Assembly: GCA_964291655.2 (NCBI GenBank)
Contig: OZ219802.1
Location: forward strand, 1,504,001 to 1,568,000
Direction: 5' to 3'
Length of the DNA: 64,000 bases
DNA from: Chloroflexota bacterium
GTDB lineage: Bacteria > Chloroflexota > UBA11872 > VXOZ01
Position numbers and translations under genes: made by a program. This document shows, in pieces, positions 1,836 to 53,876 of this stretch (the stretch's first letter is position 1; each line of letters opens with the position of its first letter). The notes under the pieces are model-generated. The model was not told the DNA's origin. It searched no databases and saw nothing but the letters and a program-made list of their open reading frames with translations.

Positions 1836-2123
1836 TGTACAGACCGGGGACATAGGTAACAGTTGTTCGGGGACATGGGTTACACATTTTACTGATTGAC
1901 ACCTACGAGAGCATTGGGTTGGTCCGGGTTTGATAAGAGACTGGCGACACAGTGCACTCACTTTCAGCCTGTCAGCTTGTGCCAGAGAAACAAACTGTGT
2001 GCATAAGGATATTGAGCGGATCTAACTTTCAAGGCAAGGACATCGCATACTACGAAAATCCCCTCGTTCTATGGTGTAACCTATGTGCCCGAACATGTGT
2101 AACCCATGTACCCGGTCTATACA
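1836..2123 (+). mobile_element. 288-bp non-autonomous MITE, copy 1 (subtype A), IS481-like TGT...ACA ends
   Basis: TGTACAGACCGGGGACAT...ATGTACCCGGTCTATACA. Each end has two repeated CGGG-ACATRGGTWACA sites. 5-bp TSD CTCCC within a CCCTCTCCC/GGGAGAGGG hairpin. Confidence 0.93.
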
Positions 2124-3399: not shown

Positions 3400-3487
3400 G
3401 GAAGAGCCTTTCTCTGTCGAATTGCCACTCCTCAGGCCATGCAAACCGGAAATGCAAGGAGCCCCTCACCCCAGCCCTCTCCCCCAG

Positions 3488-4039
3488 GAGACCTCTGCGC
3501 AACTCTAGCGGTAGCGAAATAGTTCCCTCTCCCTCGACGGGAGAGGGCTAGAGCCTGCCCCGTACTCGATACGTGTATAGACCGGGGACATGGGTAACAG
3601 TTGTTCGGGCTCATAGGTAACACCATAGAACGAGGGGGTTTTCGTAGTATGCGATGTCCTTGCCTTGAAAGTTAGATCCACTCAATATCCTTATGCACAC
3701 TGTTTGTTTCTCTGGCACAAGCTGACAGGCGGAAAGTGAGTGCACTGTGTCGCCAGTCTCTTATCAAACCCGGACCAACCCAATGCTCTCGTAGGTGTCA
3801 ATCAGTAAAATGTGTTACCCATGTCCCCGAACAACTGTTACCTATGTCCCCGGTCTGTACAATACGGGGGTGAGGGTGAATCTCCGAATTCTCTCCATAG
3901 CATACAGATATTTGCTCGGCTACATCTTGACACTGCACCAGCGCAAGGGGCCACCGCAACATAAAGATCCCCTCACCCCGACCCTCTCCCCGAGGAGAGG
4001 GAGGTTTGCTCGCCGACAGGTAAGTTACGCAAAGGTCTC
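3488..4039. mobile_element. GAGACC...GGTCTC-ended non-autonomous element (~259 bp without the insert), carrying two BoxC-like hairpins; hosts MITE copy 2
   Basis: TIRs GAGACCTCTGCGCAAC / GTTACGCAAAGGTCTC. CCCAG duplicated on both sides. Sits in the loop of a CCCTCTCCC-GGGAGAGGG hairpin. Confidence 0.8.
3574..3861 (-). mobile_element. 288-bp MITE, copy 2 (subtype B)
   Basis: TGTATAGACC...GGTCTGTACA. TSD ATACG inside the small hairpin CCCCGTACTCGATACGGGG. Confidence 0.93.
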
Positions 4040-4170
4040 CCCAGGGAGAGGGAGTCACTTTGCGCTTGCGGGTCGTTCGTACGCCAATCCCGCCGGTCGT
4101 ATGACTATGCCTCTGTTGAGCGATTCGCCGGGCTTCCGACCCCGGCAGAAGAAGATGCATGCCGTTTCGT

Positions 4171-5008: not shown

Positions 5009-5244
5009 CCGCAAGACTCATTCTGCCTAGGAGACCATCGCACAGCCCAATTCTACAGGCGGCAAGACTCCCTCTCCCCTTGAAGACCCTACACGCCCAC
5101 ACCTAGCAGACCAAAAGACTCCCTCTCACCAGAAAGCCCCTGTGCACCCCTGCCCTGCAGGCCGCAAGACCCCCTCTCCCTGGGGAGAGAAAGCCCATGT
5201 GCACCCCTGCCCTGCAAGCCGCAAGACCCCCTCTCCCTGGGGAG
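5009..5244. repeat. Degenerating tandem array of ~51-57-bp units (GCAAGACYCCCTCTCCC...)
   Basis: Core recurs near 5011, 5062, 5114, 5164 and 5221. The two rightmost units are nearly identical. Confidence 0.7.
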
Positions 5245-5532
5245 TGTATAGACCGGGTACATGGGTTACACATGTTCGGGCACATAGGTTACACCATAGA
5301 ACGAGGGGATTTTCGTAGTATGCGATGTCCTTGCCTTGAAAGTTAGATCCGCTCAATATCCTTATGCACACAGTTTGTTTCTCTGGCACAAGCTGACAGG
5401 CTGAAAGTGAGTGCACTGTGTCGCCAGTCTCTTATCAAACCCGGACCAACCCAATGCTCTCGTAGGTGTCAATCAGTAAAATGTGTAACCCATGTCCCCG
5501 AACAACTGTTACCTATGTCCCCGGTCTGTACA
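5245..5532 (-). mobile_element. 288-bp MITE, copy 3 (subtype A)
   Basis: Reverse complement of copy 1. TSD GGGAG in a BoxC-like hairpin. Confidence 0.93.
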
Positions 5533-7053: not shown

Positions 7054-7800
7054 GAGACTTTTGCATAACCCTTGCTGGGGCGAGAAAGTCCCCTCTCCCG
7101 GTGGAGACCTTTGCATAACCCCACTTTCAAGCAGGGGCACTCCCTCTCCTGGGGGAGAGGGTCTTTTTGCTACGATGGCCCTTTACGCTGGGCAGTGTCA
7201 AGACGTATCAGGGCAGATTTGGTGTGCATATGGAGAGATTTCACGAGATTCACCCTCACCCTAACCCTCTCCCATCTGTACAGACCGGGGACATAGGTAA
7301 CAGTTGTTCGGGGACATGGGTTACACATTTTACTGATTGACACCTACGAGAGCATTGGGTTGGTCCGGGTTTGATAAGAGACTGGCGACACAGTGCACTC
7401 ACTTTCAGCCTGTCAGCTTGTGCCAGAGAAACAAACTGTGTGCATAAGGATATTGAGCGGATCTAACTTTCAAGGCAAGGACATCGCATACTACGAAAAT
7501 CCCCTCGTTCTATGGTGTAACCTATGTGCCCGAACATGTGTAACCCATGTACCCGGTCTATACAGGGGAGAGGGCCGGGGTGAGGGGGTCCTTATGCTAC
7601 GATGGCCCTTTACGCTGGGCAGTGTCAAGACGTATCAGGGCAGATTTGGTGTGCATATGGAGAGATTTCAGGAGATTCACCCTCACCCTAGCCCTCTCCC
7701 GTCGAGGGAGAGGGGACATCCGCGCTGTGGCGAGGGTTATGCAAAGGTCTCCGCCGGGAGAGGGGACTTTCCCGCCCCGCGTGGGTGATGCAACAGTCTA
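7054..7800. mobile_element. Nested GAGAC-ended elements (outer 7054-7800, inner 7104-7751) with a duplicated internal spacer; hosts MITE copy 4
   Basis: Left TIRs GAGACTTTTGCATAAC (7054) and GAGACCTTTGCATAAC (7104). Right TIRs GTTATGCAAAGGTCTC (7751) and degenerate GTGATGCAACAGTCTA (7800). Confidence 0.7.
7277..7564 (+). mobile_element. 288-bp MITE, copy 4 (subtype A), no matching TSD
   Basis: Same sequence as copy 1. Flanks CCATC and GGGGA do not match. Confidence 0.92.
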
Positions 7801-7859: not shown

Positions 7860-8510
7860 CTAGCCCTTCTGGCTGGTTCCCCGCAGCACCCAACCCAGCA
7901 CTGCCACCACCACAACTAAGAGCACCGCAAAGCCCAACCACGCCGGAATAAATTCCTGTAAAGGACTTTCAGCGGACGTGGTTGCATCGGCCCCGGCAGC
8001 CGTTGAACGTGTCCGCTCAATCCGGAAACCGGACTGTCGATAGGGCTCGCTGGTACCCGCGGCAGGCACTTGGCCCTCACCCAGCGCGTCAATGTCCGAC
8101 TGCGCGAGCGACAAGCGGCGCGTGCGGCTGCAAGGGACTGCGGTCTCGCCGTCGTAGGAGTAGACCAGCCACTCCTGTCCCACGTAGAACTCCACCCCGC
8201 AACTGCCGCTCCACCATGCCGTTTCGATGAACATGGTGGCATAGGCCTGGCCTTTCCAGACGGCGTACACTTCGAACTCCACCAAGACGTACCCGCTGAG
8301 CAGCGCCGGTTCGCGCAGCGTGCCGTCGCCCCCGCTGACGTGCACAACCTTCCCCGAGAACACTTTTGCGCTCTGCGCCAACGCCTCGGTGGGAGAGGGC
8401 GTTTCCCCGCACGAGCACGCATCTACGTCACCTACGAACAAGAGAAAGCAAAATCCGGCAAAGAATATTGCTGAGGAAAATCGCAAGGCTTGAACGGTCG
8501 TCATCATCAC
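7860..8510 (-). CDS. Secreted, C-terminally membrane-anchored TIMP/NTR-like domain protein
   Basis: Signal peptide followed by A-CSC, VFSGKVV, FEVYAVWKG, SCGVEF..GQEWLVY and CSRT; C-terminal TM helix. Confidence 0.72.
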   Translation of the reverse strand: MMMTTVQALRFSSAIFFAGFCFLLFVGDVDACSCGETPSPTEALAQSAKVFSGKVVHVSGGDGTLREPALLSGYVLVEFEVYAVWKGQAYATMFIETAWWSGSCGVEFYVGQEWLVYSYDGETAVPCSRTRRLSLAQSDIDALGEGQVPAAGTSEPYRQSGFRIERTRSTAAGADATTSAESPLQEFIPAWLGFAVLLVVVVAVLGWVLRGTSQKG

Positions 8511-8809
8511 TTAATTATGTCTCATTCGTATGAAGCAATAACACTTGCCAACTCCCTGACTACTCCGTTGCAACGCAAGTACAAGTAGACGCACTAGGTG
8601 GGTTTCTCACTTAGCTGGTGGTCTAGTTACTCATCGTTGTATTTTTTTGTTTGCAACCTGATCCTGCGGAGTCCTGCAGATGCGAACTCTTAACCTACAA
8701 ACTCGAGGGTCGGCACAAGTTGACATACCGGTTGCGAACACTACCCGCACCTAATACATTGGATGGTGCGCGCAATTCGACTGGCAACAACAAGGCAAGG
8801 GAGCACAAG

Positions 8810-10657
8810 ATGGATTATATGGGCTACGGTATCGAAAATGAATTCCTCCAAGGGGTGCTAGGTGGATCAGCGGAGGGGAATACACAACTTCCCGACTTTC
8901 AGCGAGGTTGGGTGTGGGACGACGAACACGTGCGGAGCCTCCTCTCAAGCATCACTCTAGGATATCCGATCGGTGCAGTCATGATGCTTGAGGTCGGGGG
9001 CGATAGTGTTCGCTTCAAGCAACGCCCGCTTGAGGGTGCACCTGAGCCGAAGCAGGAAGCCGAGCGGTTAATCCTTGACGGACAGCAGCGGATAACGTCG
9101 CTATTCCAGTCCCTCCGCCCTGACCAACCAGTTCGCACCCGCGACCAGCGCGGACGGCAAATCGACCGCTGGTACTACATCAAAATGGAACTGGCTCTGG
9201 ACCCAAGTTCCGATCGTGAGGACGCGGTGGTCTCGCTGCCAGCAGACCGGCAGATCAAACGTTTCGGGCGCGATGTCATAGAGGACTACTCGACTCCCAA
9301 TCTAGAGTATAAGGCAATGCTCTTTCCGCTGTCCCAGGCATTCGATTCGAGCGACTGGCGTGTGGGCTTCGAAAAGTACTGGGACTACAACAGAGAGAAG
9401 ATCAAACTGTGGAACGAATTTGAAAAGAAGATCGTCAAGCGCATTCAGCAGTACCAAGTGCCGGTAATTGAGCTTGGAAAGGACACTCCGAAAGAGGCTG
9501 TGTGCCAAGTCTTTGAGAAGGTGAACACAGGGGGCGTGACACTTACTGTTTTCGAGCTGCTTACCGCAACTTTTGCAGCTGACGACTTCCAATTGCGACC
9601 AGACTGGGAGGTACGGGAGCGTACGATACACTCCCAGTCGGTACTCACTGGCGTGTCCAATACGGACTTCCTTCAGGCTGTAGCGTTGCTCGCAACCCTT
9701 GAGCGGCGGCAGGTTGCCATGCGTGATGGCACGGACGCGGACCGTGCGCCGGGAGTAGGGTGTAAGCGCGCGGACATGTTGCGGCTGAGTCTCGAAGAGT
9801 ATCAGAGGTGGGCGGATCCACTGATGAGGGGCTTCGAGAGGGTGGCGCGATTTCTTCACGCGCAACGCCTTTTCGACGCCAAGTTCCTGCCCTACGGTAG
9901 CCAATTGATTCCGTTGGCCGCAATCCTCACAGAACTTGACAGCGATTGGGAGCCGCACCCTGCGAGGGAGAAGCTCGCGCGCTGGTACTGGTGCGGCGTC
10001 CTAGGAGAATTGTACGGTGGATCAGTCGAGACTCGATTTGCCCTCGACCTTCCGGAGGTTGTGAATTGGATTCGGGACAACGGGCCAGAGCCGAGGACGA
10101 TCTATGACGCTGAGTTCGCCCCGGCCCGACTGCTTACACTGCGCACCCGGAATAGCGCAGCATATAAGGGCGTGTACGCACTGCTGCTGCGCGAAGGTGC
10201 ATGCGACTGGATCACAGGAGAGGAATCGTCGATACAGTCCTACTTCGACGAGAGAATCGACATCCACCACATCTTCCCCCAAAAATGGTGCCGCGAGCAG
10301 GGGATAGAGGCAGCGCGCTGTGACTCGATTATCAACAAGACGCCACTCACGGCACGGACGAACCGTAGCATTGGCGGCCAAGCGCCCGGCGCATACCTGA
10401 ATCGCATCATGTCGGATGGCGTTTCGCGAGACGCGCTGAACATCTACCTCGACTCGCATCTCATCGACCCCGAGCACCTATGGCTTTCCGATTTTAGTCA
10501 ACTCTTTCGCGCAAGGGAATCGGCTCTTCTCAATGCAATCAGGAAGGCGATGGGGAAGCCCATCGCGTCCAGGACGGTAGATGAGCCCGACGACACGCCG
10601 GTCGATTACGAACTTGTGCAGGAAGATAGTTTGGAGTTGGAGGGCGTGCCTGGTTGA
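8810..10657 (+). CDS. GmrSD-like (DUF262 plus C-terminal HNH/DUF1524-like) putative modification-dependent restriction protein
   Basis: LPDFQRGWVW, LDGQQR, FEKVNTGG, DIHHIFP...NKTPL...N. Start at ATG 8810 after AAGGGAG. Confidence 0.85.
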   Translation: MDYMGYGIENEFLQGVLGGSAEGNTQLPDFQRGWVWDDEHVRSLLSSITLGYPIGAVMMLEVGGDSVRFKQRPLEGAPEPKQEAERLILDGQQRITSLFQSLRPDQPVRTRDQRGRQIDRWYYIKMELALDPSSDREDAVVSLPADRQIKRFGRDVIEDYSTPNLEYKAMLFPLSQAFDSSDWRVGFEKYWDYNREKIKLWNEFEKKIVKRIQQYQVPVIELGKDTPKEAVCQVFEKVNTGGVTLTVFELLTATFAADDFQLRPDWEVRERTIHSQSVLTGVSNTDFLQAVALLATLERRQVAMRDGTDADRAPGVGCKRADMLRLSLEEYQRWADPLMRGFERVARFLHAQRLFDAKFLPYGSQLIPLAAILTELDSDWEPHPAREKLARWYWCGVLGELYGGSVETRFALDLPEVVNWIRDNGPEPRTIYDAEFAPARLLTLRTRNSAAYKGVYALLLREGACDWITGEESSIQSYFDERIDIHHIFPQKWCREQGIEAARCDSIINKTPLTARTNRSIGGQAPGAYLNRIMSDGVSRDALNIYLDSHLIDPEHLWLSDFSQLFRARESALLNAIRKAMGKPIASRTVDEPDDTPVDYELVQEDSLELEGVPG

Positions 10658-10819
10658 CTGTTTGCCTTGGTCGTGATTTGTTCCTGAGGGGTAGCGATTC
10701 GCAACTGTTTTTTTGTTTAGCCATTTGCGTGGTCTGTTGTGAGGTCTGTGAAAGAACGGTTCCATCCGTAACATTCAAAGGCCAACCGGCGTCACGAAAG
10801 GGGTAATTTCGGTGCGGAG

Positions 10820-11000
10820 TCTCTGCTCCCGGAAGCGATTGGCAAGCGGGCGCCGCGGCCTCTTCTTGGCAGACGGTGAATACCGTTGGCCCGCTGCCGG
10901 AGACCTGGGCGTGTTGAGCGCTGGCTTGCATCAAGTCGTTTTTGTGCCACTGTGATCTACGGCCGCAGGCATGTCGCTGCTGTCACTGCTAGTCCTGCCA
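10820..11000 (-). pseudogene. Decayed duplicate of the ispE 3' region
   Basis: Encodes MQASAQHAQVSGSGPTVFTVCQE, versus MQAGAERAHVSGSGPTVFAVCED in the intact ispE. An in-frame stop lies upstream and the frame is disrupted. Confidence 0.75.
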
Positions 11001-11021
11001 GTAATCGGCGGCCGCTGTCGA

Positions 11022-12629
11022 TCACAACTTTATTGGGGTATTGGTGCCTGTTAATTGGCAGGGCGAGCCCGCACTTGGCCAATTTCCTTTGACGAAGTCG
11101 GCAGCCCGCTCTGCCATTGCAATCACCGTGTGGTTGAGGTTGGCCCGCACGGTATCGGGCATGATTGACGCGTCGCAGATGCGGAGGCCCACGACGCCGT
11201 GCACCCTGCCGTATTGGTCCGTCACGGCCAGTGGATCGGTGGCGGGCCCCATTTTGCAGGTGCTTGAGACGTGATGGGCCGTGACCACCTCGCGTTTCAT
11301 CCATGAATCCAGGGCAGCGTCATCGTCAAGGACATTGTCCGCGGGCGCGACCCGTTCAGCGACCATGTCTGCGAAGGCTGCATGTTGGAACAACCCGGCG
11401 CAGGTCCGGATGCTCTCGCGCAGCCGCGAGCGGTCGAACGGATCGTCCAGCAGGTTGAAGTCGAGGTACGGCTGCTGCCGCGGGTCATCGGATTGGAGGC
11501 GGAGTTCGCCCTGGCTCAGGGCCAAATAGAGGCACTGGCTCACGCCGATGCCTATCGGAATCAGATGGTCCGCGCCCCGCATGGGCCGTTCCGCCGCATA
11601 GTTGCCCATGTAGATCACCAGGTCATTCTTGAATGGCGAACCGGTGGCCGTATAGCGCAGCGTGACCATGCCCGTCGCCACCTGAGAGGTGAACAGGCGA
11701 AATCCTGCTCGCGTGCGCCAGGCCATGGGCACGTCCGGGTGGTCGCGAAGATTGCGGCCGACGCCTGGGAGGTCGTGCACAACGGGTATGCCAAACTGCC
11801 GCGACTGCGCCGCCGGTCCGATTCCCGATAGCGCCAGGATGTGGGGCGAGCCGATCGCCCCGGCGCAGAGGACGATCTCGTCGCCATAGACGTCAAACGT
11901 TTCATTCCCGCTGATAGCGCGCACGCCTACTGCGCGGTTGTCCTGAAAGATGATGCGGTGGACGAGGCAGCGGGGTCGAATAGTCAGCTCCGGACGGGCG
12001 CGGGCAGGATTGAGGTAGGCGAAGGCCGTGCTCACACGCGTGCGGCCCGCAATGTTGAACGCCAGCGGTCCTACGCCTGTGGCATGGGGCAAATTGTGGT
12101 CGGGACAGTCGGGAATTCCGGCGTCACGGCAGGCCTCATAGAACGCGTGCTGTTGGGGTCCCCATACGCCGGGCTGAAACCGGTGGCAGTACATGGGACC
12201 GTCCGCGCCGTGAAGCTCGCTTTGAAAGTCCGCGTCCGCTTCCAGTTTCTTTAGATAGGGTAAGACTTTCGCGTACTCCCACTCCGGATTGCCCCACGAC
12301 GCCCACCGCTCGAAGTCTTCCGGCATTGCCCGCAAGAACTGCGCGTCGTTGACAGCGCTGGAACCGCCGGTGACCTTGCCGCGCGGTATATCAATCTCGG
12401 CTTCATCCGTCGCCCGGGCGCGAAACTTCCATATGTGTTCGGTCTCCCAGAGGCTTGTGTCAACGCCGTAGACGTACTCTAGCGGGTGCGGCAACCGCGC
12501 CTCCGAGGGAAAGTCCGCCCCGGCCTCGAGCAGCAGCACCGAGCGGTGGGGGTCTTCGGTCAGGCGGGCCGCCAAGACCGCGCCAGCCGAACCCGCGCCA
12601 ACGATAATGTGATCGTATCTCTTGCTCAT
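11022..12629 (-). CDS. GMC family oxidoreductase (choline dehydrogenase/MftG-like)
   Basis: IIVGAGSAG, RGKVTGGSSAVN, GAIGSP.IL.LSGIG, HHVSSTCKMG and DASIMP. Confidence 0.92.
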   Translation of the reverse strand: MSKRYDHIIVGAGSAGAVLAARLTEDPHRSVLLLEAGADFPSEARLPHPLEYVYGVDTSLWETEHIWKFRARATDEAEIDIPRGKVTGGSSAVNDAQFLRAMPEDFERWASWGNPEWEYAKVLPYLKKLEADADFQSELHGADGPMYCHRFQPGVWGPQQHAFYEACRDAGIPDCPDHNLPHATGVGPLAFNIAGRTRVSTAFAYLNPARARPELTIRPRCLVHRIIFQDNRAVGVRAISGNETFDVYGDEIVLCAGAIGSPHILALSGIGPAAQSRQFGIPVVHDLPGVGRNLRDHPDVPMAWRTRAGFRLFTSQVATGMVTLRYTATGSPFKNDLVIYMGNYAAERPMRGADHLIPIGIGVSQCLYLALSQGELRLQSDDPRQQPYLDFNLLDDPFDRSRLRESIRTCAGLFQHAAFADMVAERVAPADNVLDDDAALDSWMKREVVTAHHVSSTCKMGPATDPLAVTDQYGRVHGVVGLRICDASIMPDTVRANLNHTVIAMAERAADFVKGNWPSAGSPCQLTGTNTPIKL

Positions 12630-12927
12630 GCTATTCAGTCGGTCGTGCGCGCGCGTTTCCGTGCGGCCGGCTTGCCTTCCCGCGCGGTGTAGATCTCTTC
12701 CACCGCATTGGAGGGCCGATATGCAAAGAATCCTTTGTGTAATGTTAGCGGTTCCGTGAGAGTTTCTTCTCCCTTGACAGAGTCCCTTGCGTAACTCTAG
12801 CGGAAGCGAGTATGTTCCCTCTCCCGCGATGGAGACCTCTGAATTGCTCCGTCATACCGGCGAAAACTGGAATCCAGAAGTCTGAGGGTAGCTTGCGATT
12901 ACTAGCTATGGAGCCAAAGTGTACTCC

Positions 12928-14700
12928 TCACCACTTGGACATCCTCATGAAGGGGATAGGGTTTTGCAAGGGTCTCCGCGACGGGAGAGGGTTAGAGCCT
13001 GCCCGTAGGTGATATGGGGTGAGGGTGAATCTCCTGAAGTCTCTCCATATGCACACCGACACTGCCCTAATACGTCTTGACACTGCCCAGCGTATAGTGC
13101 CATTGTAGCAAGTAGACCCCCTCACCCCAACCCTCTCCCCCAGAGGCTGTCTCAATATTTTGGTGCGGGGCACGGTGAATGGGGTGAGAAGGACAGACAG
13201 ATGGCGGGTGGTATGAACAAGACGGTGCCAGTGAGAGACTCGTCCCCGGGGCGACGCTGGACTACACCCAGACCGCCACAGGGCGTGGAGGCTCTTGAGA
13301 TTGAACGCGGTGGCCAGCAGGTGCCATTCGGACGTCACGTGGCTGCGGCCTCTGAGCAGGAAGCGCCTGGCACTGTGCCACTCCTTGAGCAGGCCAAAGA
13401 CCGGCTCGACGATGGTACTCCGGCGGCGGTACACCTGCTTGGCAGGCGCGGTGGCCATCAACTGCCTGTGCCGTTGCAGTATTGGCTCGTAGGCGCTGAT
13501 CTTTATGGAGCGGCCCCTCTGGGAGGAGGTGCAGACGCCGAAGGCCGGACAGGTTCTGCAGTCCCGGCCGTTGGCTTGGTACCGCTTGACCCGGTAGCCG
13601 TTGCTGTGGGTCAAGCGGTGCGTGTAGGTGAGCACCTTTTGCTGGGGACACAGGTAGGTGTCGGTCTCTGGACGGTAGGTGAAGTGGTCTTTATGGTAGG
13701 GGTTGCGGCGTCTGCGCTCGTGGGTCGTGGGCATCAATACCGTGTGGCCGCCGGCGTGGCACGTGGCGAGGTTGGCCCCCGAATGGTAGCCGGCGTCCGC
13801 AACGGTCACCACGTCCCGCGCGGCGTCGATGTTCTCCTGCGCCGCCTCGATCAGCGGCGCCAGGTGGGGATGGTCGTCGGCACTGGCGCTCACGTCCACG
13901 GCTGTGATCAACCTCCCCCCTGCGCCCTCGTCCGGGGACGCAAGAGGGGAGACCAGCGCCTGGGCGTTGTAGCCGGTGATGAAGCCACCCATGCCAGTCT
14001 TGAGCAGGGCCGCGTCCGCATCAGTCAGGTTCGTGTAGCGCGGCCCGTCCTCAGCCGCGACGCGGGCGAGCGCGTCGTCCACCCGCCGCCGCAGGGCCTG
14101 GGCATCGGCAAGTTCCTGCGGCAAAGTCGCTGGCGGCGCGTCGCCCCCCGTGGCGTTCTGCGCCTCCAGGTCCGCGATCGCTTGCTCGGTGCGGGACAAC
14201 AGCCGCTGCAGCCCCTGCGCGTCGTGGGTATGCCGCGTCCCGGCGTTGGCCGCGATCCTGGTGCCGTCCACCGCCTGGATTGCCAACTCCACCAGGCCGG
14301 CTCGCACCGCCGTGCGCACCGTGCGCTTGAGCAGCGTCCGCATCCGGTCGCGGTGCGCCTTGTAGAAGCGCCACAGCGTGTTGTGGTCCGGCTGCTGCAT
14401 CCCCACCAGCCACAGGTACGGTACCTGATCCCGGCAGGCTGCCTCCAGCTTGCGGCTCGAGCGCACGCCGGTCATGAAGCCGTAGACCCATACGCCCAGC
14501 AGCGCGCGCGGATGGTAGGCCCCGGCGCCACGCGGATCGCCTTGCAGGTCAATCTCCATCGCCTCCCAGGCCGCAGCATCGAGGCTGTCCACGAACGCTG
14601 CCGCAAACCTGACAGGATGGTCGTCCGGGATCAGTTCGTCCAGCGTCGGCGGCAACAGCCAGGCCTGTTCACGACTAAACGGTCTCAACGGCATCGTCAC
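12928..14700 (-). CDS. IS1182-family DDE transposase (reads through the IS end)
   Basis: LLPPTLDELIPDDHPVR, YHPRALL, SSRKLE, PDHNTLWRF, VDGTRI.ANA, GYNAQ, ADAGY and RR..IVEPVFG. Confidence 0.92.
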   Translation of the reverse strand: MTMPLRPFSREQAWLLPPTLDELIPDDHPVRFAAAFVDSLDAAAWEAMEIDLQGDPRGAGAYHPRALLGVWVYGFMTGVRSSRKLEAACRDQVPYLWLVGMQQPDHNTLWRFYKAHRDRMRTLLKRTVRTAVRAGLVELAIQAVDGTRIAANAGTRHTHDAQGLQRLLSRTEQAIADLEAQNATGGDAPPATLPQELADAQALRRRVDDALARVAAEDGPRYTNLTDADAALLKTGMGGFITGYNAQALVSPLASPDEGAGGRLITAVDVSASADDHPHLAPLIEAAQENIDAARDVVTVADAGYHSGANLATCHAGGHTVLMPTTHERRRRNPYHKDHFTYRPETDTYLCPQQKVLTYTHRLTHSNGYRVKRYQANGRDCRTCPAFGVCTSSQRGRSIKISAYEPILQRHRQLMATAPAKQVYRRRSTIVEPVFGLLKEWHSARRFLLRGRSHVTSEWHLLATAFNLKSLHALWRSGCSPASPRGRVSHWHRLVHTTRHLSVLLTPFTVPRTKILRQPLGERVGVRGSTCYNGTIRWAVSRRIRAVSVCIWRDFRRFTLTPYHLRAGSNPLPSRRPLQNPIPFMRMSKW

Positions 14701-14786
14701 TACCTCTCTACAAACTATCCCACCACCTCACCTTGCTTCTCTTCACACCAGTATATATCCAGTAGATCTATTTTTGAGACACCCTC
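13143..14786 (-). mobile_element. IS1182-family insertion sequence
   Basis: TIRs GAGGCTGTCTCAA / TTGAGACACCCTC. Inserted in the loop of CCCTCTCCC...GGGAGAGGG; flanks CCCA/CCCG (imperfect TSD). Confidence 0.85.
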
Positions 14787-14839
14787 CCCGGGAGAGGGAG
14801 TGCCCCTGCTTGAAAGCGGTATGCAATGGTCTCCATCGG

Positions 14840-15052
14840 CAAGGGCTCCCAAACCATGAACGACATCGTCCAGCGCCCCGTACGGTGGTCCGCTCGCGCA
14901 GGCCTAGTCGGTAAGCCGGCGGCATGGTGGCCGTCGAACCTCACCGACCTGGCCGCCAGCCTATTGAGAGCGGGTGTGCGAATTGCAGGACTGTCGTAGG
15001 ATCGTGGGTGGTCCCTGCGGAAGCTGTCTGCAACCACACAGATGACATTCAA
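14840..15052 (-). pseudogene. Truncated N-terminal fragment of a sulfatase
   Basis: NVICVVADSFRRDH...RTPALNRLA...PTRPARADHRTGR is the sulfatase N-terminus with a degenerate xxPxR motif. It stops at the repeat cluster. Confidence 0.7.
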
Positions 15053-15135
15053 ATTGACTGCTCCCTGATGCTCCCGACAAATGTACCATAGGCCGCGAGG
15101 AGCAGGCAGAGTCTGTGCGCCGTTGGCTCCTAGCC

Positions 15136-16029
15136 TTACATGCCGGCGTGGCCCCAGGTCCTCCCGGACTGAACAATGCGGACGAGCTCGGCGGCGTACC
15201 CCTGCATTCGGATGCGGTTGGCAAGCGCGAGTGCGGCGTGCCTGTCTTCGCACACGGCAAAGACCGTAGGGCCGCTGCCGGAGACGTGAGCACGCTCGGC
15301 GCCGGCTTGCATCAGGGCAATCTGCGCTGCTGCAATTTCCGGCGCCAGGTCGCGAGCGGAGCGGGCTAAGCCGTTGTGCCAGCGAATCTGTGGTGAGAGC
15401 GTGCCGAGCCGGGCGGCGGCAACGGCGTCTGCGGTGGCGACGCCTGAGGTGTAGTCCGACGGGGTTACGGAGCCATAGACCTCCGCTGTGCTAAGCGTGG
15501 TTGGCAGCAGCACGAGCACCACCCAGTGCGGTGGCAGTGGCGGCAGTGGCGTGATGCGTTCACCGCGACCGGTGGCAAGCGCCGTGCCGCCTGTGAGAAA
15601 GAACGGCACGTCCGATCCCAATCCGGCAGCCAGTGCCTGCATCTCCGTTAGGGGTAGTTGAAGATTCCACAGCCGGTTGAGGGCAATGATAGCTCCCGCC
15701 GCATCGCTGCTGCCGCCGCCCAGGCCGGCCGCGACCGGTATGCGTTTCTCCAGACTGAGCGCGGCGCCCGCCCGCACGGAGAATTCTGTCTGTAGCCGCC
15801 GCGCGGCGCGATACATGAGATTATCCGGCTTTGCCAGCACGGGGTCTGAACATGTGAAGGATAGTTCGTCTGCCGCCGCGACCTCCAGCCGGTCGGCCAG
15901 CCCGACGGTCTGCATCACCGAGCGAACCTCATGGAAGCCGTCGGCGCGTTTCCCCAATATCTCCAGGGTCAGATTGATCTTGGCGTAGCAATTAACAACC
16001 ACGGTGATCCCGATCTCTCGTGCAGGCAC
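15136..16029 (-). CDS. ispE: 4-(cytidine 5'-diphospho)-2-C-methyl-D-erythritol kinase
   Basis: AKINLTLEILGKRADGFHE, KRIPVAAGLGGGSSDAA, LGSDVPFF and VSGSGPTVF. Confidence 0.95.
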   Translation of the reverse strand: MPAREIGITVVVNCYAKINLTLEILGKRADGFHEVRSVMQTVGLADRLEVAAADELSFTCSDPVLAKPDNLMYRAARRLQTEFSVRAGAALSLEKRIPVAAGLGGGSSDAAGAIIALNRLWNLQLPLTEMQALAAGLGSDVPFFLTGGTALATGRGERITPLPPLPPHWVVLVLLPTTLSTAEVYGSVTPSDYTSGVATADAVAAARLGTLSPQIRWHNGLARSARDLAPEIAAAQIALMQAGAERAHVSGSGPTVFAVCEDRHAALALANRIRMQGYAAELVRIVQSGRTWGHAGM

Positions 16030-16199
16030 GACACCATCTTAATGCACAACAGGGATGGCCGGTACCTTGCCATCCCTGCGTTCAATTCAATTCGGCTCTA
16101 GCGTGTTTCAGATGTGCGGTCTGCACGAGCATGCGGACTCTCAGAGCTTGCCTGTCTTGAGTTTGACGAAGAGTGGAAGGGCAGGTCATGTTGTTCGAG

Positions 16200-16601
16200 G
16201 AGACCTTTGCGCAACCCCCGCCGGATGCGCAAGAACCACTCCCTCTCCCTGGGGAGTGTATAGACCGGGTACATGGGTTACACATGTTCGGGCACATAGG
16301 TTACACCATAGAACGAGGGGATTTTCGTAGTATGCGATGTCCTTGCCTTGAAAGTTAGATCCGCTCAATATCCTTATGCACACAGTTTGTTTCTCTGGCA
16401 CAAGCTGACAGGCTGAAAGTGAGTGCACTGTGTCGCCAGTCTCTTATCAAACCCGGACCAACCCAATGCTCTCGTAGGTGTCAATCAGTAAAATGTGTAA
16501 CCCATGTCCCCGAACAACTGTTACCTATGTCCCCGGTCTGTACACTCCCCAAGGAGAGGGGGCAGTTCTTGCGCCACCGGCCGGGGTTACGCAAGGGTCT
16601 C
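16200..16601. mobile_element. Short palindromic GAGACC...GGTCTC element hosting MITE copy 5
   Basis: GAGACCTTTGCGCAACCCC / GGGGTTACGCAAGGGTCTC with an extended imperfect inverted repeat. Confidence 0.7.
16257..16544 (-). mobile_element. 288-bp MITE, copy 5 (subtype A), flanks inverted rather than direct
   Basis: Same sequence as copy 3. Flanks are GGGAG and CTCCC. Confidence 0.92.
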
Positions 16602-26828: not shown

Positions 26829-27056
26829 GAGGCCTTTGGCTAACGCCGTCATTCAGGCGAAAAGTCCGCCCCGTACGTGAAACAGGGGTGAAGGCGAATC
26901 CCCTAAAACCTGTATATAGCGCACCGATTATTGCGCTGCTACATCGTGAAGCTGCACATTGCAAGGGGCAATTGTAGCCATAGGAGCCCTAACCCCGACC
27001 CTCTCCCCCAGGAGAGGGAGGTTTTGTCGCCTGCTGTTGGGTTACGCAAGGGTCTC
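26829..27056. mobile_element. Diverged GAGACC-family element
   Basis: Right end GGAGAGGGAGGTTTTGTCGCC...GTTACGCAAGGGTCTC resembles 3990-4039. The left end GAGGCCTTTGGCTAAC is degenerate. Confidence 0.55.
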
Positions 27057-53588: not shown

Positions 53589-53876
53589 TGTATAGACCGG
53601 GGACATGGGTAACAGTTGTTCGGGCTCATAGGTAACACCATAGAACGAGGGGGTTTTCGTAGTATGCGATGTCCTTGCCTTGAAAGTTAGATCCACTCAA
53701 TATCCTTATGCACACTGTTTGTTTCTCTGGCACAAGCTGACAGGCGGAAAGTGAGTGCACTGTGTCGCCAGTCTCTTATCAAACCCGGACCAACCCAATG
53801 CTCTCGTAGGTGTCAATCAGTAAAATGTGTAACCCATGTCCCCGAACAACTGTTACCTATGTCCCCGGTCTGTACA
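53589..53876 (-). mobile_element. 288-bp MITE, copy 6 (subtype B)
   Basis: Shares the diagnostic variants of copy 2. TSD CCCTC in a BoxC-like hairpin. Confidence 0.93.

What the first reader, a model, noticed from the sequence alone, without database searches (positions are those of the whole stretch)
3465..4052. Russian-doll landing pad: an element that inserts into a hairpin and carries fresh copies of it
Seen, outside to inside: BoxC-like hairpin > GAGACC...GGTCTC element (3488-4039, TSD CCCAG) containing two more such hairpins around a conserved spacer > small CCCCGTACTCGATACGGGG hairpin > 288-bp MITE. The same architecture recurs at 7054-7800, 12780-14833 (with IS1182), 16200-16601 and, decayed, at 26829-27056. 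Inference: the ~260-bp element multiplies its own target site. That lets it nest in itself and creates sites for two unrelated transposon families. The GAGACCTTTGC terminus recalls IS5-family (IS1106-like) ends, from memory only.
Basis: partly seen in the sequence, partly recalled or inferred. Interest (0 to 1): 0.82.

Follow-up and report, generated by a model that had tools for sequence, protein, structure and literature searches.

The report
Transposon-borne hairpin landing pad, nested
A small non-coding jumping element in an uncultured Chloroflexota bacterium lands in the loop of a conserved DNA hairpin (the BoxC or "triplex" motif known from E. coli) and carries two fresh copies of that hairpin, which it and two unrelated jumping-gene families then use as landing sites.

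Summary
Confirmed. Window 3463-4052 is a four-layer nest in a Chloroflexota MAG. A BoxC/PIT-type hairpin (CCCTCACCCC-AG-CCCTCTCC-loop-GGAGAGGG) is split in its loop by a MITE with IS5-family ends (GAGACCTYTGC, TSD CCCAG), 259 bp once emptied. The MITE carries two more such motifs and a small hairpin. That small hairpin is split by a 288-bp MITE (TSD ATACG).

Genome-wide, 68 GAGACC MITEs, 68 IS481-type elements and 19-23 IS1182 copies sit almost only in this motif. The 288-bp MITE belongs to the IS481-type element, not to IS1182. 175 of 299 motifs lie in MITE-like DNA. MITE-like flanks occur at 34 of 68 IS481-type, 12 of 19 IS1182 and 16 of 68 GAGACC insertions.

Empty orthologous sites exist in congeners. 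The autonomous 1.2-kb IS5-family partner occurs in nine related genomes, mostly in these hairpins, but here only as a dead remnant. The same junction occurs in MAGs titled from several phyla.

What is new is that the BoxC/PIT motif, published as never associated with mobile elements, is tied to three transposase families and a MITE vehicle. REP-targeting ISs and nested MITEs are known, so this is a new variant.

The parts
3463..3487 (+). Left part of the host BoxC/PIT-type motif: third-strand block CCCTCACCCC (3463-3472), linker AG, left arm CCCTCTCC (3475-3482), TSD copy 1 CCCAG (3483-3487)
   Evidence: The intact orthologous motif is seen in G012 and G006.
3488..4039 (+). GAGACC MITE, IS5-family derived, 552 bp as found and 259 bp once the nested 288-bp MITE is removed. 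TIRs are GAGACCTCTGCGCAAC (3488-3503) and GTTACGCAAAGGTCTC (4024-4039).
   Evidence: The same element with the same TSD is present in G008. Related autonomous IS.
4040..4052 (+). TSD copy 2 CCCAG (4040-4044) and right arm GGAGAGGG (4045-4052) of the host motif
3525..3547 (+). Internal hairpin 1: CCCTCTCCC-TCGAC-GGGAGAGGG. Its third-strand block GGGGTGAGGG lies at 3867-3876, beyond the small hairpin and the nested MITE.
   Evidence: In 234-bp copies the whole unit fits the published TMECO consensus.
3558..3573 (+). Left part of the small hairpin CCCCGTACTCGATACG, including TSD copy 1 ATACG (3569-3573)
   Evidence: It is intact in G008. It is a repeat family of its own, 45 exact copies.
3574..3861 (+). 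288-bp MITE with 50-bp TIRs (TGTATAGACCGGGG...), a non-autonomous derivative of the 1265-bp IS481-family IS of this genome
   Evidence: It is absent from this site in G008.
3862..3876 (+). TSD copy 2 ATACG (3862-3866), the rest of the small hairpin, and the third-strand block GGGGTGAGGG (3867-3876) of hairpin 1
3877..3968 (+). Spacer of the MITE, conserved among copies
   Evidence: 39 copies of 232-264 bp, median pairwise identity 86%
3969..4001 (+). Internal motif 2: CCCCTCACCCC-GA-CCCTCTCC-CCGA-GGAGAGGG
   Evidence: 38 nt of it match E. coli chromosomes at 80-95% identity.
1836..2123 (-). Another 288-bp MITE in a BoxC-type hairpin (TSD CTCCC)
   Evidence: The site is empty in G008.
5245..5532 (+). 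Another 288-bp MITE in a BoxC-type hairpin (TSD GGGAG)
   Evidence: The site is empty in G008.
7054..7800 (+). Four-layer nest: host hairpin, then a short palindromic GAGACT element, then a GAGACC MITE (7104-7751), then a 288-bp MITE (7277-7564)
   Evidence: G008 has the outer element with its hairpin uninterrupted.
12780..14833 (+). 259-type GAGACC element with a 145-bp GAGACC MITE (12832-12976) in hairpin 1 and IS1182 (13144-14785) in hairpin 2
16200..16601 (+). Short palindromic GAGACC element whose single hairpin holds a 288-bp MITE (16257-16544)
26829..27056 (+). Decayed GAGACC element. Left end degenerate, right end GCAAGGGTCTC, one hairpin intact (27000-27017).
53589..53876 (+). Another 288-bp MITE in a BoxC-type hairpin (TSD CCCTC)

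Best explanation
The region is a stack of transposon insertions, each landing in a hairpin brought by the layer below. The bottom layer is a copy of the BoxC / PIT / 'TMECO' intrastrand-triplex motif: a 9-bp G+C hairpin plus one extra pyrimidine block. A non-autonomous IS5-family element (a MITE with GAGACCTTTGC ends) inserted at the tip of that hairpin and duplicated the loop as its TSD. This MITE family consists of about 35-40 bp from each end of a 1.2-kb IS5-family IS, two inverted copies of the BoxC-type motif, and a roughly 100-bp spacer. Each insertion therefore splits one motif and brings two. SHOWN: the anatomy, the TSDs, the empty and filled orthologous sites, and the autonomous relative in congeners. 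Also shown is that the motif is the near-exclusive site of three element families here: the IS5-type MITEs, an IS1182-family IS, and an IS481-family IS with its 288-bp MITE. MITE-borne motifs are used as sites by all three. The partner transposase gene survives here only as a dead remnant, so the GAGACC MITEs are probably now immobile unless a transposase arrives again. INFERRED: the transposase was supplied in trans; the three DDE transposases pick the site themselves rather than insertions merely surviving there; and they read a structural or composite feature of the whole motif. The last point rests on three things. The IS5-type and IS1182 TSDs are centred on the dyad. The IS481-type TSD sits on the arm next to the third-strand block in 57 of 62 cases. 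One 288-bp MITE sits in a different hairpin. How the MITE acquired its hairpins is not known.
For: Anatomy and TSDs. Family assignments: IS5 279 bits, IS1182 364 bits and IS481 291 bits, all above the curated cut-offs; Pfam DDE_Tnp_1/DUF772 and rve. The end motif is printed for the IS5-family ISNme1 and ISPg1 in Table 2 of PMC4596501. Targeting, by reading the printed flanks: all 23 full IS1182 copies, all 24 IS481 copies and 43 of 44 288-bp MITEs lie in the motif. After peeling: IS1182 19 of 19 and IS481-type 64 of 68 have both arms; GAGACC has 38 both, 13 one and 17 none of 68. Ends next to an arm: 63-65% against 2% at random positions. Autonomous copies in 9 related genomes (20 read): 12 between both arms, 3 with one arm, 1 in another hairpin, 4 elsewhere. 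Multiplication of the motif: 175 of 299 hairpins lie in DNA homologous to the paired MITEs. Re-use: 22/68, 6/19 and 4/68 are nested in a paired GAGACC element. By the flank test, 34/68, 12/19 and 16/68 have at least one MITE-like flank. Mobility: empty sites in G012 and G006; stepwise filling across G008 and G000. The family is present in 16 of 16 congeners searched and 3 of 3 genomes of one further family. Identity with BoxC/TMECO: the published consensus matches 48 times against 0 in shuffles; 5083 of 5426 E. coli genomes are hit at 80-95% over 38 nt, for example in the phnK-phnL spacer. Asymmetry of IS481-type insertion: 57 of 62, binomial 3e-12, with IS orientation 29:28. Loss of the partner. 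Breadth: the arm-N5-GAGACCTTTGC junction occurs in at least 111 public stretches and the N7 form in at least 116. My own rough arithmetic for uniform composition expects about 4. Record titles span Chloroflexota, Dehalococcoidia, Alphaproteobacteria, Binatia, 'delta proteobacterium', Gammaproteobacteria, Acidobacteriota and Planctomycetota. The IS1182-type junction occurs in 44 stretches, including Acidobacteriota/Terriglobia. The single-strand fold of the empty MITE is -49.8 kcal/mol, z -3.6.
Against: No transposition was observed; everything is comparative. 17 of 68 GAGACC MITEs and 4 of 20 autonomous copies are not in the motif, so the preference is strong but not absolute. 25 of 68 GAGACC pairs were accepted with one mismatch in the TSD, and pairing by TSD can admit chance pairs. 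The figure '175 of 299 in MITE-like DNA' depends on a 50-bp BLAST threshold. The autonomous IS has no internal hairpin, so the MITE's hairpins are not explained by simple internal deletion. The idea that the cuts follow the loop holds for the 16 strict cases in this genome by construction, but for only 49 of 108 paired elements in public loci; there, 7-nt spacers often give 5- or 6-bp TSDs set against one arm. In other taxa only 9 of 40 paired GAGACC elements carry an internal hairpin, so carrying the target is a lineage trait and not a family rule. Holder et al. report no stable triplex in vivo by footprinting (passage seen), so a role for the triplex itself is unproven.
Confidence: 0.82

Rival explanations
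1. The hairpins inside the MITE are not cargo but later arrivals. The BoxC-type unit would itself be the mobile or recombining entity, spreading by an unknown enzyme, gene conversion or BIME/NIME-like mosaic recombination. MITEs would be just one of the places where it accumulates.
For: The unit comes and goes at the orthologous spacer without any visible TIR. It is absent in G003, G004, G007, G010 and G015, and present in G012, G006, G001, G016 and G011. 123 of 299 units lie outside MITE-like DNA, some in tandem arrays. The autonomous IS has no hairpin. At one orthologous MITE, G000 and G008 differ in the ~40 bp behind the left TIR, which shows exchange between copies.
Against: The two units sit at the same mirrored positions, about 35-50 bp from each end, in diverged subfamilies (234/259-bp, 252-bp, ~100-bp palindromic and 139-bp with a degenerate unit). 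This fits inheritance with the element better than repeated arrival. Copies with TSDs show that whole MITEs moved with their hairpins.
Confidence: 0.12
2. The transposases insert more or less at random, and insertions survive only in the neutral repeat. The landing pad would be a filter of selection, not a target.
For: The motif is intergenic and probably harmless to interrupt. 17 of 68 GAGACC MITEs lie elsewhere.
Against: Placement is precise to the base. IS1182 TSDs are centred on the dyad in 19 of 19 cases with a restorable hairpin. GAGACC TSDs are centred in 36 of 39. IS481-type TSDs lie at the arm-loop junction of one particular arm in 57 of 62. Random insertion into intergenic DNA would not give 63-65% of ends within 17 nt of a 7-nt word that occurs near 2% of positions.
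Confidence: 0.04
3. GAGACC is only the outer arm of a large REPIN-like palindrome spread by a RAYT (Y1) transposase, not a TIR of a DDE element.
For: The elements are long imperfect palindromes. The genome has one Y1_Tnp-like gene (30 bits).
Against: The elements have TSDs, and empty sites exist. Autonomous IS5-family elements with the same 16-bp ends occur in congeners. None of the searched hairpin or GAGACC motifs of the element lies in the 2.5 kb around the Y1 gene, only three bare GAGACC/GGTCTC hexamers, two of them within ~100 bp of it.
Confidence: 0.02

Closest known systems
REP sequences as IS targets (Tobes and Pareja 2006, PMC1525189; abstract seen)
   Same: Extragenic palindromes act as hot spots for specific ISs of several families. 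ISNm1106 of Neisseria, the IS group whose end motif recurs here, is listed as preferring REP-bearing spacers.
   Different: Here the palindrome is the BoxC/PIT motif, not a classical REP. Three families hit one motif with base-level precision in one genome. A MITE also carries the motif, so target and transposon multiply together.
BoxC / PIT / TMECO intrastrand-triplex motif of E. coli and many bacteria (Holder et al. 2015, PMC4666352; abstract and passages seen)
   Same: The consensus is the same (CCCTCNCCC-N3-6-GGGNGAGGG-N3-GGGNGAGGG). The motif is intergenic, extremely conserved across phyla, and associated with locus instability.
   Different: That paper states the motif was never found with transposons, transposases or integrases. 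Here it is the main insertion site of three IS families and rides in a MITE. Copy number is also higher here: 48 strict and about 300 relaxed, against 23 in MG1655.
Neisseria intergenic mosaic elements (dRS3 + RS) and the ISNme1-derived ATR MITE (PMC1797815, passages; PMC4596501, passages)
   Same: Short inverted-repeat hairpins delimit mosaic repeat units and serve as integration sites for mobile DNA. The IS has the same terminal motif, GAGACCTTTGC. dRS3-like hairpins (ATTCCC-N8-GGGAAT) occur inside GAGACC MITEs of Dehalococcoidia MAGs, and in variant form in the 139-bp MITE here.
   Different: In Neisseria the named integrating agent at dRS3 is a phage recombinase. Nesting of the MITE in its own cargo is not described in the passages I saw.
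BrickBuilt and MITEPgRS of Porphyromonas gingivalis (PMC4596501, passages)
   Same: They are IS5-family-derived MITEs with GAGACC-type 12-bp ends, internal sequence unrelated to the IS, and variable TSD length.
   Different: Their cargo is a minisatellite, not a target hairpin. No hairpin targeting is reported in the passages seen.
Nested MITEs of plants and some bacteria (recalled, no call)
   Same: MITEs insert into MITEs.
   Different: In those cases, as I recall them, nesting follows from abundance or a short target word, not from a conserved structured target carried as paired cargo.

Membership tests
IS5-family MITE (derivative of an ISNme1/IS1106-like IS) | Terminal inverted repeats shared with an autonomous IS of the family | tested here: met
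   The 16-bp ends GAGACCTTTGCRYAAC are the same in the MITEs and in 20 autonomous copies of 1190-1248 bp. Their transposase scores 279 bits on NF033581, cut-off 140. The end is printed for ISNme1 in PMC4596501.
IS5-family MITE (derivative of an ISNme1/IS1106-like IS) | Target-site duplication | tested here: met
   43 of 68 pairs are exact, with lengths 4 (5), 5 (29), 6 (4), 7 (4) and 8 (1). The other 25 have one mismatch.
IS5-family MITE (derivative of an ISNme1/IS1106-like IS) | Small size and no transposase gene | tested here: met
   Emptied sizes are about 100, 139, 232-237 and 251-264 bp. The larger 'elements' resolve into a MITE plus a nested IS.
IS5-family MITE (derivative of an ISNme1/IS1106-like IS) | Presence/absence at orthologous sites | tested here: met
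   G012 and G006 are empty, G008 and G000 are filled. The element at 7104-7751 is absent in G008.
IS5-family MITE (derivative of an ISNme1/IS1106-like IS) | Autonomous partner in the same genome | tested here: not met
   PF01609 finds only the 25 IS1182 copies. NF033581 gives no hit above the cut-off in G000. tblastn finds one 39-aa remnant with a right TIR at C2:1656102-1656396. The genome is 97.55% complete in 2 contigs.
IS5-family MITE (derivative of an ISNme1/IS1106-like IS) | Mobilisation by the transposase | not testable with these tools
   Needs a transposition assay.
BoxC / PIT / TMECO intrastrand-triplex motif | Published consensus CCCTCNCCC-N3-6-GGGNGAGGG-N3-GGGNGAGGG | tested here: met
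   There are 48 exact matches in G000 and 0 in three shuffles. Hairpin 1 of the 234-bp MITEs fits exactly. Many other copies, including hairpin 2 at 3969-4001, miss by one base at the stem end.
BoxC / PIT / TMECO intrastrand-triplex motif | Sequence likeness to the E. coli copies | tested here: met
   Window 3960-4010 hits 5083 of 5426 E. coli genomes with 38 nt at 80-95% identity, median 6 places each. The phnK-phnL spacer was read.
BoxC / PIT / TMECO intrastrand-triplex motif | Folding into a triplex | not testable with these tools
   The block order fits the published scheme. ViennaRNA does not model triplexes (one search shows only the hairpins).
REPIN / RAYT system | A Y1 (RAYT) gene flanked by the repeat, and no TSD | tested here: not met
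   There is one Y1-like gene, and the 2.5 kb around it holds none of the searched hairpin or GAGACC motifs, only three bare GAGACC/GGTCTC hexamers. The elements have TSDs.
IS481 family (parent of the 288-bp MITE) | rve-type transposase of the family; TG...CA ends shared between IS and MITE | tested here: met
   NF033577 scores 291 bits, cut-off 224. Pfam finds rve and LZ_Tnp_IS481. The 50-bp ends of the 1265-bp IS and the 288-bp MITE align.
IS1182 family | Family transposase | tested here: met
   NF033551 scores 364 bits, cut-off 270. There are 23 full copies at 99.8-100% identity.

The most novel reading that the evidence does not exclude
The BoxC/PIT 'triplex' motif, whose extreme conservation, wide spread and link to genome instability have had no mechanism since the 1990s, spreads by hitch-hiking in IS5-family MITEs. 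It is unstable because its folded form (hairpin, cruciform or triplex) is a structural beacon read by several unrelated DDE transposases. The one-sided IS481-type insertion next to the third-strand block would then be the first in-genome sign that the third strand matters in vivo.
Probability: 0.3. Interest if true: 0.8.

Novelty: new variant of a known kind. Interest (0 to 1): 0.64.

Why it matters
Holder et al. 2015 reported that the BoxC/PIT/TMECO motif is among the most conserved non-coding repeats in bacteria. They also reported that loci bearing it are unusually rearranged, and that they never found it with transposases or other mobile elements (passages seen).

This genome and its relatives supply two missing links in testable form. 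The first is a vehicle: an IS5-derived MITE that carries the motif in pairs. The second is a cause of instability: three transposase families insert into the motif with base-level precision, and the resulting repeat nests mark the ends of at least one inversion between close relatives.

It is also a clean natural example of a transposon that renews its own target, so target supply grows with copy number. Finally, the transposases are candidates for structure-directed or motif-directed integration.

Tried and rejected
IS5-group elements with GGAAAGGTCTG ends and CTAG-type TSDs are common in congeners (the best NF033581 hits, 330-342 bits). They are not the partner, because their ends differ. 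The partner is the lower-scoring set at 265-298 bits.

PF13586 finds nothing in G000.

A RAYT origin is rejected.

The 'pairs' of GAGACC ends 1.4-6 kb apart with common TSDs such as CCCAG enclose ordinary genes, for example a BirA-like ORF. I take them as chance pairs.

Promoter scan of 3400-4150 found 0 sites. One terminator-like site was found, with 0.4 expected. No function is claimed.

Rfam gives only sub-threshold whalefall-1 hits (23 and 19.5 bits against a threshold of 37).

'TSD equals the loop' as a general rule is rejected. It holds for only 49 of 108 paired elements in public loci.

My first classification of the third-strand side was flawed: a one-mismatch pattern also matched the hairpin arm. 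I replaced it with exact patterns.

The first pairing table chose right ends badly and was replaced.

Sequencing runs: no RNA holder is listed. Four runs hold most of the stretch, and I name no habitat. Laying contigs of X1, X3, X5 and X10 gave no contig bridging the whole nest. The joints there come from other repeat copies or relatives and decide nothing about polymorphism at this site.

Supplementary files were not opened. The supplementary tables of PMC4666352 (motif counts per genome, locus lists) and the additional files of PMC1525189 (IS-REP positions) may bear on how new the IS-motif link is.

Literature. The search for the end motif gave 25 papers, of which 10 were listed and one was relevant. 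The search for 'intrastrand triplex', 'insertion sequence', 'MITE', 'TMECO' and 'BoxC' gave 663 papers with at least 2 terms. Among the 15 listed, only PMC4666352 holds the triplex terms. I did not see the other 648. Papers seen only as listings.

Structure prediction, complex prediction, the search for homologous proteins and the representative search were not used, because no protein question was open.

Full report
WHAT IS THERE.
The window is G000:C2:1504001-1568000 of a 3.47-Mb, 59% G+C genome in two contigs. Congeners carry titles such as 'MAG: Chloroflexota bacterium'.

Between two conserved genes, reading left to right:
- CCCTCACCCC (3463-3472), then AG, then CCCTCTCC (3475-3482), then CCCAG.
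- An element from GAGACC at 3488 to GGTCTC at 4039.
- CCCAG again, then GGAGAGGG (4045-4052).

Inside the element lie:
- CCCTCTCCC-TCGAC-GGGAGAGGG (3525-3547).
- A small hairpin CCCCGTACTCGATACGGGG, split after ATACG by a 288-bp element with 50-bp inverted ends (3574-3861). ATACG is repeated behind it.
- GGGGTGAGGG (3867-3876) and a spacer.
- CCCCTCACCCC-GA-CCCTCTCC-CCGA-GGAGAGGG (3969-4001).

Removing the 288-bp element leaves 259 bp. 7054-7800 has four layers. 12780-14833 holds a 145-bp GAGACC element in one hairpin and IS1182 in the other.

THE HAIRPIN IS THE BoxC / PIT / TMECO MOTIF.
No copy in the genome has the CCCTCACCCC block on both sides (0 matches). The unit is therefore asymmetric: block, short linker, hairpin.

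That is the published consensus CCCTCNCCC-N3-6-GGGNGAGGG-N3-GGGNGAGGG of the 'TMECO' intrastrand-triplex motif, formerly called BoxC or PIT (PMC4666352, passages). The strict pattern matches 48 times here and 0 times in three shuffles. A relaxed hairpin pattern finds 299 copies once nested ISs are removed.

Window 3960-4010 hits 5083 of 5426 complete E. coli genomes with 38 nt at 80-95% identity, median 6 places each. One such place, the phnK-phnL spacer, holds two units. So 'BoxC-like' is correct.

THE GAGACC ELEMENT IS AN IS5-FAMILY MITE.
Exact GAGACCTNTGC ends occur 78 times as left ends and 66 times as right ends. I removed nested elements in silico and paired ends by TSD. This resolved 68 elements, mostly of about 100, 139, 232-237 and 251-264 bp. 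Of these, 43 have exact TSDs: 5 bp in 29, and 4, 6, 7 or 8 bp in the rest.

The apparent elements of about 525-552, 1500-1530 and 1880 bp are the 234/259-bp MITE plus a nested element. The nested element is a 288-bp MITE, a 1265-bp IS481-family IS, or a 1642-bp IS1182-family IS.

The end motif is printed for the IS5-family ISNme1 (Neisseria) and ISPg1 in Table 2 of PMC4596501. In G000 no IS5-group transposase gene is present. Only a 39-aa remnant with a right end, followed by CGCCG-GGAGAG, lies at C2:1656102-1656396.

In relatives the family model NF033581 finds two kinds of IS. One is a classical IS5-like element with GGAAAGGTCTG ends, which is not the partner. The other is 1190-1248 bp with GAGACCTTTGCRYAAC ends. 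I read 20 copies of this second kind in 9 genomes. Of the 20:
- 12 lie between CCCTCTCC and GGAGAGGG arms.
- 3 have one arm.
- 1 lies in an ATTCCCGCG...CGCGGGAAT hairpin.
- 4 lie elsewhere.
TSDs are 4-8 bp where intact.

The IS has no hairpin inside, and only about 35-40 bp at each MITE end resemble its ends. I noted that resemblance by eye.

ONE MOTIF, THREE FAMILIES.
By reading the printed flanks, all 23 full IS1182 copies, all 24 IS481 copies and 43 of 44 288-bp MITEs lie in the motif. The window's copy in the small hairpin is the one exception. After peeling:
- IS1182: 19 of 19 have both arms.
- IS481-type: 64 of 68 have both arms.
- GAGACC: 38 of 68 have both arms, 13 have one, 17 have none.

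Ends next to an arm make up 63-65%, against 2% for random positions.

The three families cut differently. IS1182 and GAGACC TSDs are centred on the dyad (19 of 19 and 36 of 39 restorable sites). The IS481-type TSD (CTCCC, GGGAG and the like) lies at the arm-loop junction, on the arm next to the third-strand block, in 57 of 62 cases. IS orientation is 29:28 (binomial 3e-12).

Because the hairpin itself is two-fold symmetric, that bias means the flanking block is sensed, either as sequence or as structure.

DOES THE MITE MULTIPLY ITS OWN TARGET?
Each 234/259-bp copy splits one motif and brings two. 175 of 299 hairpins lie in DNA homologous to the paired MITEs. The measure uses a 50-bp threshold.

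Nested inside a recognisable paired GAGACC element are 22 of 68 IS481-type, 6 of 19 IS1182 and 4 of 68 GAGACC insertions. Each lies about 50 bp from an end, where the hairpins are. By a flank test, at least one MITE-like flank is found at 34/68, 12/19 and 16/68.

Use of MITE-borne motifs is thus about in proportion to their share. They are ordinary targets, not better ones.

MOBILITY.
The two flanking genes are syntenic in all 10 congeners whose loci were compared (a flank match in 15 of 16). The spacer states are:
- G012 and G006 hold the uninterrupted motif, that is, the empty site.
- G003, G004, G007, G010 and G015 have no motif.
- G001, G016 and G011 have a motif in other arrangements.

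G008 (flank 96% identical) has the MITE with the same TSD and an intact small hairpin. It also lacks the 288-bp MITEs of window 1836 and 5245. Where G000 has the MITE of 7104-7751, G008 has an uninterrupted hairpin.

The order of events at 3465-4052 is therefore motif first, then GAGACC MITE, then 288-bp MITE.

The MITE's left 86 bp is found in 16 of 16 congeners and in 3 of 3 genomes of one other family, but in 0 of 11 genomes of four further families of the class. The 39 copies of 232-264 bp are 55-98% identical, median 86%, so the family is old and was long active.

BREADTH.
My own arithmetic for uniform composition expects about 4. Titles include Chloroflexota, Dehalococcoidia, Rhodomicrobium, Bauldia, Bosea, Roseibium, Hyphomicrobiales, Binatia, 'delta proteobacterium', Gammaproteobacteria, Acidobacteriota and Planctomycetota.

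In 80 of these loci, 40 complete elements with TSDs were found. 9 carry an internal hairpin, and 2 are autonomous-sized. Examples read include nests in another Chloroflexota MAG.

Over the 201 loci, 108 paired elements give TSDs mostly of 5 bp. The TSD fills the whole spacer in 49.

The IS1182-type junction occurs in 44 stretches, mostly congeners, but also in Acidobacteriota/Terriglobia, one Akkermansia and one Ignavibacteria MAG title.

HOW IT MOST LIKELY WORKS.
Shown: the layers, the TSDs, the order of events, the shared site, the re-use of cargo, the autonomous relative, and its loss here.

Inferred: an IS5-family transposase supplied in trans bound the 16-bp ends and integrated at the tip of the folded or foldable motif. 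The other two transposases do the same with their own geometry. The choice rests on a feature of the whole motif.

Not known: how the hairpins got into the MITE, whether triplex or cruciform forms in vivo, and whether the motif has a host function. Holder et al. saw no stable triplex by footprinting (passage).

COMPARISON AND NOVELTY.
REPs as IS hot spots are established, including a preference of ISNm1106 for REP-bearing spacers (PMC1525189, abstract). Mosaic repeat arrays bounded by hairpins that serve as integration sites are known in Neisseria (PMC1797815, passages). Nested MITEs are also known (recalled).

Three things are new, as far as the searches show. First, the target is the BoxC/PIT motif, which its main study says was never found with mobile elements. 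Second, three families converge on it. Third, a MITE carries it in pairs. I rate this a new variant of a known kind, of good interest to mobile-DNA and genome-architecture specialists.

Noticed in passing
window 7860-16256: This segment is inverted between G000 and its closest relative G008. The two breakpoints fall in the repeat nests at 7054-7800 and 16200-16601.
   Followed up: partly
G000 C2:1423385-1425026 and C2:2067273-2068914 (outside the window): 11 of 23 IS1182 copies paired by the end patterns lack matching TSDs. At these two copies the left and right flanks are reverse complements of each other, as expected after recombination between IS copies.
   Followed up: no
window 12928-14700 (-) and the other IS1182 copies: The IS1182 transposase frame has no stop codon inside the IS and runs out into the flank. 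Open frames differ by copy, 454-624 aa.
   Followed up: no
G000 C2:1656102-1656396 (locus L281 403-697): A dead 3' remnant of the autonomous GAGACC IS: 39 aa at 59% identity to a congener's transposase. Its right end GCAAGGGTCTC is followed by CGCCG-GGAGAG.
   Followed up: yes
139-bp GAGACC MITEs of G000 (e.g. C2:2167482-2167620); L067 406-547; L026 flanks: Some GAGACC MITEs carry hairpins of the Neisseria dRS3 type. ATTCCGGCGAAAGCCGGAAT occurs here, and ATTCCC-N8-GGGAAT occurs in a Dehalococcoidia MAG. One autonomous IS, in G020, sits in ATTCCCGCG...CGCGGGAAT.
   Followed up: partly
G000 C2:2553804-2554064 and C1:742600-743372: Tandem arrays of BoxC-type units, with periods of about 44 bp and about 100 bp.
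   Followed up: no
genome-wide; window 3558-3573 with 3862-3869: The small hairpin AGCCTG-CCCCGTAC...GTACGGGG is a repeat family of its own: 45 exact copies and 127 relaxed. It occurs both inside BoxC-type units (between block and hairpin) and elsewhere.
   Followed up: partly
window 3488-3527 versus G008 C42 end (locus L041): At the orthologous MITE, the roughly 40 bp behind the left TIR belong to different subfamilies in G000 and G008. This indicates exchange between copies.
   Followed up: no
window 5140-5250: G000 has a tandem duplication of about 57 bp, including a hairpin, next to the 288-bp MITE. G008 has one copy.
   Followed up: no
G000 C2:2523481-2523714 (-): A single Y1_Tnp-like (RAYT-like) gene, 30 bits, in a 276-aa open frame, with none of the searched hairpin or GAGACC motifs in the 2.5 kb around it, only three bare GAGACC/GGTCTC hexamers.
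   Followed up: yes
window 3969-4003 (-) and 3980-4053 (+): Sub-threshold Rfam matches of the hairpins to the whalefall-1 RNA motif: 23 and 19.5 bits against a gathering score of 37.
   Followed up: no
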